DNA of 64,000 nt from Paraspadella gotoi (lineage: Eukaryota > Animalia > Chaetognatha), in the NCBI GenBank assembly GCA_051294375.1, contig CM119266.1, positions 14,488,755 through 14,552,754 on the forward strand, written 5' to 3'. The notes under the pieces were generated by a model. It made no database searches. It had not been told where the DNA came from and was given only the letters and a program-made list of their open reading frames with translations. Made by a program: the position numbers and the translations under genes. Below, piece after piece: positions 3,498 through 6,400 of this stretch (within the stretch, counting starts at the first letter, position 1; each line of letters begins with the position of its first letter).

Positions 3498-6400
3498 TTA
3501 GCTAGAATTAACGACGGAGTTAACAACAGCCTCCATTTCCTCCACCATATTCTCCCGCTCCGTATCAAATCGTCGACGCCACGTAACCTGAAGTAGAGTA
3601 AATGATGTTAAGAAATAGTAATCGTAAAATATTGTAAAATTACATGCATTTTTACCAAACCAAAAAGGCGCTACTTTTAACATTGAACATTGCCCATATC
3701 TTTTATGATCAGGTCTGTTATTCTTCATTAAAAAGATTTTGTTGTGAAAACAAGGAAAACTTTCCATCCCAAGCAAGTTTAGAATAAATGAATTTTAGTC
3801 TTCTTAAATTAGGCGCCCTGCGGCTTTCTTTTAACGCTTACCTGGCTCAGAGCGGCGTGCAGCTTCTCCAACGAATGAAGGCTGAAGTCTTTGGTAGAGT
3901 CGACCACGTGATCGAGAAGACTTTCTAGTCGTTTCGAATCTACGCGCTTGACGGGAGAAGGGGGCGGAGTTTCTTCTCGAGGCAACGCCACAGAGGGCGC
4001 AATCTCCATAGCCTCCAAGGCCGCGAGCTGTCGACGAGTTCGAACCGGGGAAGCGGGAGATTTTTTGGGCGAGGTAGTGAGGTCGGTGGAGGATGTTGGA
4101 ATGGGCGCGGCCGGATCTACAGGGATTTCTTCGTCGAGTTCCATCGATTTGACCTCTTCGCCAGCGCGAGGGGATTTGGAGTCCAACTGAAAGAATACCA
4201 AGAAACGTGAATATAACGTCGTAAGAAAAAAAGTCATTATTTTGGTCAAAATTTTAAACCATAGGAAAGAAAATAATTGCCTGTTCTCGATGGGCGAGCG
4301 CAGTTTCAATGAGTTGGTTGAACGCAGATCCAACTGGAGTCTTGGATGGACCCTGGCCAGACTGCGCCGGGGAACTGGCGGTCTCGGCCGAGGCGGCATC
4401 TCGAGACTGAGATTTCGATTCTTCGTCTTCGTCGAAGGACACAACTTTGGGGCTGGAACTGAGTTCGCTGTCGATGCCCGAAGAGGTCACGCCACTGGCG
4501 CTGGAATTCTCGTCAACGACGAAATGGGGATTTGGCGGTTGAGCGTCAGCGGCCGGCACCGCGTCAGAGGGCGGGGCAATGACGGCGGCCGCGCTCGTGT
4601 CAGCAGATGAGTCCGTGTCGGCAGAATGGACTTTTTCTTCGCTTTTAGTCGCGTTGGATTTGCTAGAGGTATCACAGTTCTCGCTTTTTTTGGAATCGTC
4701 GACCGCGAGGTCTCTGCCATGTTTTGAGTTGGCGACGTTGTCCGACTCTTCGAAGGGCGAAAATCTGGCTTCATTGTCTTCGCACTCGTTGACGGTAGAA
4801 TCTAATGAGGAGTTGAGCAAAGGAGATCCTATGGTGGGCGTGCGAGAAGAGGTATCGGCAGAATCAAGTCGAGGTGAACTGTTAAAAGAAATATAATAGT
4901 TATGTACTTAATGATAAAAAGCTTTTCTTTATATAGCTGAACGTCTGACAAACCTGGTCGGAGGCGCATCGACCTTCTTTCTCTTTTCCCTGAAATCGAC
5001 GCAAACTCTCTGCTCGCAGGTCTTACGCCACTTGTAATAATATTTGCAGCATCTGCACTTCCGGCAATTCTCCTTGATCAGACACGGGCCGCAGACGCCG
5101 CACTTGACGCGACGACGTCCGCCCTTCTAAAAAAAAATTGATATCATAACGTTGCTTATTTCGTTCCCGAAAACAATGAGACTCATCTCCAAAATACCGA
5201 GTACCTGGTTTGATGATTTTGTGGCGGAGAGATCAGCAGCTTTGTCATCATTCAATACTTTCTCGTCCCCTTCATCCGCTTCCATATTTTCTCCTCCATT
5301 TTCGTCATCTCCTCCATTCTCCTCCTCTTTATTACCTTTATCATTATCTCCCTCGTCTTTCTCTCCATCGTCCTCTTCATCATCGTCTTCGCTCTCGATG
5401 CGACGCTTCTTCACGCGAACTACGCCACGGGCCCACTGGCTCCGTCTCTTCCGCTTTTTGGGACGTTCCCTAAAAGTAAAAGAAAGTAAAGTAAACTTAC
5501 CGAATTGCTGCTCAATGATTTAAAATATTTTTTAAAATTTGTTTTGGAACCTGTAGGCCTCTCTCGTTTGTGCGCTATCGCCGTTTCCCTCTTCAATGCG
5601 ATGATCCTCCATAGGCGCGACTCCGACGTCTCCTTCACTCTCTGTGCGCGGGAGCAGAGGGCGTCGGTGCCTCATGTGCGCCGGGAGGACTCGACTGAAT
5701 GCGGGCGCCGACTTTGAGGGAGTTTCTCCCCGGCAGGTGCGGGACTTCACAATCTCCTCGAGGCGCTTCTCGAATTCCGGGTCGTATTCTGCGATTATCG
5801 GAATAAAAAATAAAAAGAGCTTCGAATTATTTTCCTGGGAGGCTTAATCAAGCTAGAGATGCTAATTCCCCTGATCGCCGGTTTCTCACTAATAGAAACT
5901 CAATATTACCAGCTGTTATGATAGCGTGGGAGACGTCTTTCAAGGTACACGCCCGATGCCTGATGGCTCTGTCTTCATTGGTCTCGTCGGGGTTGTACTC
6001 CAGTGCGTTGTCGCAAACTAGTTCAATGTCGTCGAGGAAAGATCGAGCCGTGGAATATTCGTGTCGGTCTATTTTTGCCATCATAGTCGACAGGTCCATT
6101 GGTTTCTGAAATGGCCAGAAAGCAAATGAGAAGCAAAGATAAGCACCGTTAATCGGGCTGTAATCTCTGGAATCATTTCATCAACCTTGATTATTTCGAA
6201 GTAATCAGGCACGATATCAGGGTCGATTGGTCTGCTGAAGATGGAGAACCTCCGATCCCTCAGCAGCCTTCCCAGCATCTCGCGCAAAAAGATCCTCAAT
6301 TCAGTCAACGTCTGTTTTTCATTTTCCCTCAGTCGCTTCAACTCTTCCTCGGTCATGGCGGTTGGTTCTGGCTCCTCCGACGCTACCGGAAGCGGTTCGC

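What the first reader, a model, noticed from the sequence alone, without database searches (positions are those of the whole stretch)
4954..5126. ATAD2 carries a TET/IDAX-type CXXC zinc finger: AAA+ ATPase + bromodomain + CXXC fusion
Seen: a 173-nt exon missed by the ORF track encodes [39 protein letters not shown], with spacing C-x2-C-x2-C-x5-C-x2-C-x2-C-x9-C-x4-C and basic flanks. It lies in the linker after the bromodomain. Its length is not a multiple of 3 and it bridges a phase-0 donor to a phase-2 acceptor, so full-length protein needs it. Known: this spacing is that of the short-linker CXXC domains of TET1, CXXC4/IDAX and CXXC5, which read unmethylated CpG. ATAD2/Yta7/Abo1/LEX-1 are described with AAA domains and a bromodomain but, to my knowledge, no CXXC. 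Inference: a hexameric histone chaperone could combine acetyl-lysine reading with up to six DNA-reading fingers. Caveat: the HQ/KQ base-reading motif before Cys7 is replaced by RKT, so specificity may differ or be lost.
Basis: partly seen in the sequence, partly recalled or inferred. Interest (0 to 1): 0.85.

Follow-up and report, generated by a model that had tools for sequence, protein, structure and literature searches.

The report
ATAD2 chaperone with variant CXXC finger
In this animal the ATAD2 histone-chaperone gene splices in an extra exon encoding a CXXC-type zinc finger with an altered DNA-reading loop, which would likely give the enzyme its own grip on exposed DNA, a combination not found in the relatives or papers searched.

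Summary
Observation confirmed. The 173-nt exon (4954-5126, minus strand) encodes eight cysteines with TET/IDAX short-linker CXXC spacing. A spliced contig of run X1 includes it, with both junctions, inside one 28-exon, 1888-aa ATAD2 frame; skipping it gives a stop four codons later. The only Pfam hit is zf-CXXC (E 1.6e-4, below the gathering score). The best PDB sequence hits are TET1, TET3, CXXC5 and CXXC4, and the best of 1.84 billion representatives is a zf-CXXC protein (E 1.2e-7). None of 103 other ATAD2 proteins has even a CxxCxxC. The interpretation needs amending. The base-reading tripeptide SHQ/IRQ is WRK, so the Gln that CFP1 needs for binding is Lys. The window also has no CpG depletion (o/e 1.3), so reading methylation state would target little. 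One unrelated record (P0005) has the same WRK loop, which suggests selection; whether it is an ATAD2 fragment is unproven. Fold predictions were inconclusive. Best reading: a likely zinc-bound clamp for accessible DNA on the flexible linker, up to six per hexamer. New variant of a known kind. Non-bilaterian animals were not sampled, so the fusion may be more widespread.

The parts
4954..5126 (-). CXXC exon, 25th of 28 coding exons (aa 1488-1545 of the 1888-aa model), phase 0 to phase 2
5001..5102 (-). Eight-cysteine CXXC core (aa 1496-1529), short 9-residue linker, no KFGG, CxxRxC second cluster
5022..5030 (-). W-R-K tripeptide at the base-reading position (S-H-Q in TET1/TET3, I-R-Q in CFP1)
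   Evidence: alignments; PMC3685328, PMC3072069
5127..5204 (-). 78-nt GT-AG intron upstream of the exon
4879..4953 (-). 75-nt GT-AG intron downstream of the exon
3498..11762 (-). ATAD2 coding region, 28 exons, 1888 aa, one open frame
   Evidence: summed exon lengths equal the contig gaps (429, 2356, 435, 173 nt)
8321..9151 (-). AAA1 domain exons: Walker A (9012-9035), pore loop, Walker B and arginine-finger motifs intact
   Evidence: Pfam PF00004; motif positions
5910..6492 (-). Bromodomain, over two exons, with the conserved Tyr-Asn motif
   Evidence: PF00439 E 8.5e-12
5205..5469 (-). Linker exon before the finger: basic/Trp motif also seen in other ATAD2 tails, then an acidic tract
   Evidence: loose pattern in 63 of 109 proteins with the bromodomain anchor
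3498..3960 (-). Conserved ATAD2 C-terminal domain (end of exon 27 and exon 28; boundary approximate)
   Evidence: tblastn matches of aa >1800 to L001 and L022; family description PMC4275701

Best explanation
This is an expressed ATAD2 histone-chaperone gene that has gained an exon for a variant CXXC zinc finger in its long flexible linker, and the finger likely binds two zinc ions and would clamp accessible, nucleosome-free DNA with relaxed or altered base preference rather than read methylation. Shown: the exon, its splicing into the frame, the cysteine pattern, intact AAA1 and bromodomain motifs, the WRK loop and the lack of CpG depletion. Inferred from known families: ATAD2 forms a hexamer with the bromodomains and this linker near the histone-binding top face; CXXC fingers need both DNA grooves free and so bind linker DNA. 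Up to six fingers would therefore add avidity for open DNA beside the nucleosome being loaded or stripped, while the bromodomains read acetylated H4. Arg and Lys in the loop could still contact guanines, and backbone carbonyls could still read cytosines, so a G/C or CpG preference may remain.
For: Spliced contig with both junctions. Frameshift on skipping. zf-CXXC is the only Pfam family at E<=10. The top six PDB sequence hits are TET/CXXC4/CXXC5 fingers, aligned over all eight Cys. Best representative hit P0003 (E 1.2e-7) is a zf-CXXC protein above the cut-off. The Atlas's first hit is zf-CXXC at score 0.80, a lead only. Strongly basic domain. The same W-R-K loop in P0005 at about 50% identity suggests constraint rather than decay. 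CXXC needs internucleosomal DNA (PMC3685328). The linker lies near the top face and crosslinks to H3/H4 (PMC10539301). Abo1 protects DNA even without histones (PMC6917787). CpG o/e is 1.30 in the window, 1.27 in the CDS and 1.32 in introns, against a median of 0.69 in 76 related loci.
Against: The Pfam score (22.1 bits) is below the gathering score of 26.5. The conserved Gln is lost; Q201A abolishes CFP1 binding, and MBD1 CXXC1, which lacks it, does not bind CpG DNA (PMC3072069), so DNA binding may be weak or absent. A bulky Trp precedes the loop. No second species is shown to carry the fusion: P0005 flank similarity is weak once the basic flanks are removed (15 and 56 of 300 shuffles reach it). 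The expression evidence is one contig of one run, possibly from the source organism.
Confidence: 0.55

Rival explanations
1. The finger is a canonical reader of unmethylated CpG: Arg and Lys replace the Arg/His and Gln contacts to the two guanines, and ATAD2 is steered to or away from methylated DNA.
For: In CFP1 the cytosines are read by backbone carbonyls and one guanine by Arg200 (PMC3072069); the Arg is present here. Lys can donate hydrogen bonds to guanine (general knowledge). The loop is kept in P0005.
Against: The Gln is described as highly conserved and needed for binding. No CpG depletion, with o/e 1.14 even across codon boundaries, implies little germline methylation in this window, although low or transposon-limited methylation is not excluded.
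Confidence: 0.25
2. The finger has stopped reading DNA and serves as a zinc-stabilised protein-interaction module, like MBD1 CxxC-1 and CxxC-2, using the aromatic YYY-W surface to dock a partner onto the ATAD2 linker.
For: Type-2 fingers that lost the KQ loop act as protein-interaction modules (PMC3685328). There are four aromatic residues in the 9-residue linker. CXXC4/5 bind Dvl through a motif near this region (PMC11730785).
Against: The basic flanks and the CxxRxC Arg are kept as in DNA-binding fingers. The Dvl-binding KTxxxI pattern is not matched in register (read from the sequence).
Confidence: 0.17
3. The exon is a chance cysteine-rich stretch, a minor isoform or an assembly artefact.
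For: Sub-threshold Pfam score. Only one run holds the gene, and contigs drop rare variants. Frame-keeping bypass sites exist in silico.
Against: A spliced contig with no mismatch in its listed pieces includes the exon. 0 motif matches in 200 shuffles. E 1.2e-7 to a true CXXC among 1.84 billion proteins. Exon GC is 0.55, like the CDS (0.54) and unlike introns (0.32).
Confidence: 0.03

Closest known systems
ATAD2/ATAD2B/Abo1/Yta7/LEX-1/BRAT1 bromodomain AAA+ histone chaperones
   Same: Acidic N-terminus, AAA1 with intact catalytic motifs, bromodomain, long C-terminal linker and C-terminal domain; 48-52% identity to most sampled animal orthologues over 966 columns.
   Different: A CXXC finger in the C-terminal linker; no CxxCxxC in 103 of 103 ATAD2 proteins checked, and none mentioned in the family papers read.
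Type-3 ZF-CxxC domains of TET1, TET3, CXXC4/IDAX and CXXC5
   Same: Identical cysteine spacing, 9-residue linker without KFGG, CxxRxC, basic flanks.
   Different: S/G-H-Q is W-R-K; an extra Cys; aromatic linker; attached to an AAA+ ATPase rather than a dioxygenase or a small adaptor.
Type-1 ZF-CxxC of CFP1 (I-R-Q loop)
   Same: Hydrophobic residue followed by Arg in the reading tripeptide.
   Different: Short linker, no KFGG, Gln replaced by Lys.
Arabidopsis BRAT1-BRP1 complex
   Same: An ATAD2 homologue works with a zinc-finger-bearing AAA protein (BRP1 has a plant-homeodomain-like finger; PMC4899616, passages), a precedent for adding a finger to this machine.
   Different: There the finger is PHD-like and on a partner protein; here it is a CXXC finger in the ATAD2 chain itself.
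P0005 (215-aa record, source label 'merc')
   Same: Same short-linker finger with W-R-K, 18 of 35 core positions identical, acidic and Ser/Pro-rich flanks.
   Different: No AAA or bromodomain in the record; orthology to this ATAD2 is not shown.

Membership tests
ZF-CxxC domain | Eight Cys as CxxCxxCx4/5CGxCxxC and CxxRxC (PMC3685328) | tested here: met
   all eight Cys and the Arg are present; the Gly after Cys4 is Arg, and CXXC5 also lacks this Gly in the alignment
ZF-CxxC domain | Pfam PF02008 gathering score (operational cut-off) | tested here: not met
   22.1 bits against 26.5, E 1.6e-4, the only family hit
ZF-CxxC domain | Crescent fold | tested here: inconclusive
   AlphaFold2 mean pLDDT 62.5 and 63.5, no zinc, alignment depth 1 and 4; structure searches gave nothing usable
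ZF-CxxC domain | Binds two Zn ions and double-stranded DNA | not testable with these tools
   needs biochemistry
Type-3 (TET/IDAX) ZF-CxxC | Short linker lacking KFGG | tested here: met
   9-residue linker, ungapped alignment with TET1, TET3, CXXC4 and CXXC5
Type-3 (TET/IDAX) ZF-CxxC | HQ dipeptide in the DNA-binding loop | tested here: not met
   RK in that register; hence filed as a type-3-like variant, not a canonical member
Type-1 ZF-CxxC | Long linker with KFGG and KQ/RQ | tested here: not met
ATAD2 family | AAA1 with Walker A/B, pore loop and arginine finger | tested here: met
ATAD2 family | Bromodomain C-terminal to the AAA domains | tested here: met
ATAD2 family | Acidic N-terminal region and conserved C-terminal domain | tested here: met
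   translation; tblastn of aa >1800 to L001 and L022
ATAD2 family | Degenerate AAA2 domain | not tested
   the region aligns within the 966 kept columns but was not scored on its own
ATAD2 family | Hexamer with ATP-dependent H3-H4 handling | not testable with these tools
   inferred from PMC6917787 and PMC10539301

The most novel reading that the evidence does not exclude
An animal lineage has turned ATAD2 into a self-targeting nucleosome machine: six linker-borne CXXC fingers of a new WRK subtype, with a DNA specificity of their own, aim histone loading or eviction at particular sequences in a genome with little or no methylation. P0005 would be the same fusion in a second species, and the unclassified insert in the same linker of L005/L006 would be an independent reader gain, making this linker a docking site for targeting modules.
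Probability: 0.25. Interest if true: 0.8.

Novelty: new variant of a known kind. Interest (0 to 1): 0.56.

Why it matters
How ATAD2-family chaperones, which are cancer drug targets, engage DNA and choose where to load or evict histones is poorly understood, and their long C-terminal linker is unresolved in cryo-EM maps. A natural version with a DNA-binding-type finger in that linker suggests that the linker can reach DNA and offers a testable handle. The WRK finger is also a natural experiment on the CXXC recognition code, since it lacks the Gln thought essential. Domain accretion in chromatin proteins is common, and the case rests on one species, which limits the score.

Tried and rejected
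No genome is held for the window, so the DNMT/TET repertoire and paralogous fingers could not be checked. No listed holder is on record as RNA; X1 is taken as RNA because its contig is spliced. A word-based search with the exon found 1 candidate and no hit. The exon/P0005 profile found no relative in metagenome contigs (157 pattern matches, 0 confirmed); in viral contigs it found one locus, L077, which has only a CxxCxxC followed by stops and was rejected. Both AlphaFold2 models were of low confidence, and four structure searches gave no meaningful match (best Z 2.7); this is no evidence either way. P0004 is a chance match in fibronectin repeats. The loose Cys matches in L006, L058 and L072 are not CXXC domains. 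P0005 orthology: local flank alignments reached by 238 and 52 of 2000 shuffles; anchored alignments by 0 and 2 of 300, but by 15 and 56 of 300 without the ten basic flanking residues, and an Octopus control also reached 0 of 300 downstream, so it is left open. Trees do not place the organism: long branch, about equally distant from all sampled bilaterians, joined to the outgroup side; IQ-TREE runs did not finish. The Tudor-like look of the L005 insert was not confirmed by Pfam, PDB or Atlas. Three look-ups in earlier findings returned nothing. A closer view of rare skipping joints and of runs X2/X3 at the exon was not obtained, so those questions stay open.

Full report
Observation. The minus-strand segment 5126-4954 lies between an AG acceptor and a GT donor. 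It translates to a 57-residue stretch with cysteines at 9, 12, 15, 21, 24, 27, 37 and 42 and an extra Cys26, exactly the spacing reported. The eight-Cys pattern occurs once in the six frames of the window and 0 times in 200 shuffles of those frames. The exon's GC content (0.55) matches the coding sequence (0.54), not the introns (0.32).

It is part of the ATAD2 message. One public run, X1, holds the region (kind is a guess). Laid on 3000-13000, its contig record 1 (9910 nt) skips the introns and shows joints 4878/4954 and 5126/5205, with no other letters in its listed pieces (15 of 48 joints were shown). A 28-exon model from 11762 to 3498 gives one open frame of 1888 aa. Its summed exon lengths equal the gaps between the contig's listed pieces exactly: 429, 2356, 435 and 173 nt. 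The exon enters in phase 0 and leaves in phase 2; omitting it gives a stop after four codons and loses the C-terminal domain. Ten frame-keeping pairs of non-annotated GT/AG sites could bypass it in silico; none is among the joints shown, but contigs drop rare variants. The finger (aa 1496-1529) sits about 200 residues after the bromodomain, in what PMC10539301 calls the C-terminal linker (passages). Walker A, Walker B, pore loop, arginine finger and the bromodomain Tyr-Asn motif are intact.

It is a CXXC-type finger. zf-CXXC is the only Pfam family at E<=10 (E 1.6e-4; 22.1 bits, under the 26.5 cut-off). Of 12 PDB sequence hits, the top six are TET1, Xenopus TET3 (4hp1; the TET3 name follows PMC3685328 for 4HP3), CXXC5, CXXC4 and two more TET fingers. 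Among 1.84 billion representatives, 4 proteins reach E<=0.001: P0003 (Octopus, two zf-CXXC, E 1.2e-7), P0005 and P0006 (both with sub-threshold zf-CXXC) and one chance hit. The Atlas's first hit is a zf-CXXC cluster at 0.80, a lead only. Two AlphaFold2 models without zinc were of low confidence and matched nothing usable, so the fold is unverified.

The reading loop differs. By PMC3685328 (passages), type-3 fingers have a short linker without KFGG and an HQ dipeptide. Here the linker is short, but S-H-Q aligns with W-R-K. In CFP1 the tripeptide I-R-Q reads both cytosines through backbone carbonyls and the guanines through Arg200 and Gln201; Q201A abolishes binding, and MBD1 CXXC1, lacking the Gln, does not bind (PMC3072069, passages and Table 3). 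The Arg is kept here and the Gln is Lys. P0005, an unnamed 215-aa record, has the same W-R-K and 18 of 35 core identities, so the variant exists in at least two sequences and looks constrained. P0003 and P0006 keep KQ. Whether P0005 is an ATAD2 fragment is open: its flanks share short colinear motifs by eye, but the tests are weak once the basic flanks are removed, and a control behaves similarly.

Genome context. CpG o/e is 1.30 over the window, 1.27 in the ATAD2 CDS, 1.32 in its introns and 1.14 across codon boundaries, whereas 50 of 76 related loci are under 0.8 (median 0.69). This implies little germline CpG methylation here (inference; transposon-limited methylation is not excluded). A finger that only told methylated from unmethylated CpG would then target little. 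The organism is an animal by its genes but is not placed: 48-52% identity to most sampled bilaterian orthologues, on a long branch, with no non-bilaterian animal in the sample.

How rare. Of 128 proteins held, 103 passed my bromodomain criterion for ATAD2, 92 of them with 150 or more residues after it; none of the 128 other than P0003, P0005 and P0006 contains CxxCxxC. These come mainly from the best 120 of 6071 hits to a mollusc query, so molluscs and deuterostomes dominate. In 76 metagenome loci no CXXC was found in six frames, but most do not span the linker, and introns could split a motif; the four complete ORFs (L001, L005, L006, L070) lack it. Literature: 36 papers hold both 'ATAD2' and 'CXXC' (30 listings seen, none on such a fusion by title or abstract start); two searches found 0 papers and one unrelated paper. 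Passages of PMC4275701 and PMC13060104 describe only the standard architecture; 'CXXC' occurs 0 times in PMC4275701. Papers were seen as listings or passages only, no supplements were read, and subscription papers on protist chromatin domain architectures are outside the library. InterPro was not available.

Mechanism. Shown: an expressed ATAD2 with a variant finger in the flexible linker. Inferred: hexamer formation and ATP-driven H3-H4 handling as in Abo1 (PMC6917787, passages); a linker near the histone-binding top face that crosslinks to H3/H4; and CXXC binding restricted to DNA with both grooves free. The simplest working model is up to six basic zinc clamps that tether the chaperone to nucleosome-free or linker DNA next to its histone substrate, with relaxed or changed base preference (0.55). 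Rivals are a canonical unmethylated-CpG reader (0.25), a protein-interaction module (0.17) and an artefact (0.03). The nearest precedent found is Arabidopsis BRAT1 working with BRP1, which has a PHD-like finger (PMC4899616, passages).

Verdict. A real domain fusion, supported by a spliced transcript and not found in the relatives or papers searched; a new variant of ATAD2 and of the short-linker CXXC finger. Function is untested, and the taxonomic range is unknown. Interest 0.56.

Noticed in passing
L005:3842-4141 and the same place in L006: Two near-identical intronless ATAD2 ORFs (about 1590 aa) carry a roughly 60-aa insert that looks like a small beta-barrel in the same linker between bromodomain and C-terminal domain. 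Pfam, PDB and Atlas gave no family (weak lead DUF3104). It may be an independent gain of a reader domain.
   Followed up: partly
window 11846-13000 and beyond: The X1 contig carrying the ATAD2 message runs on unbroken through about 1 kb upstream into the same-strand C2H2 zinc-finger gene that ends at 12808: read-through, an operon-like transcript or merged overlapping UTRs. An 80-nt 5' UTR intron ends 3 nt before the ATG.
   Followed up: no
window 6950-7150 (intron 6854-7177): A multi-copy repeat inside the longest intron, with depth up to about 20 times the gene's and short matches in runs X2 and X3; it looks like a small non-autonomous element.
   Followed up: no
window 11017-11753: A 1577-nt contig of run X3 (organism C) matches three 5' ATAD2 exons in order, suggesting a relative in which the CXXC exon could be sought.
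   Followed up: no
window 4187-4280: A GC-AG intron supported by the contig joint.
   Followed up: yes
whole window: CpG is over-represented throughout (o/e 1.11-1.45 in all 16 blocks of 4 kb), with short AT-rich introns (62-324 nt in ATAD2).
   Followed up: partly
P0003: An uncharacterised Octopus protein with two short-linker CXXC fingers bearing KQ and no other Pfam domain.
   Followed up: no
window 23651-26581 (minus strand): A 976-aa uninterrupted frame with no Pfam family, unusual in this intron-dense region. Neighbours with Pfam hits include OGG_N (27744-28226), DUF3689 (35819-37132), DUF5600 (48134-48727) and a C2H2 protein (55470-55865).
   Followed up: no
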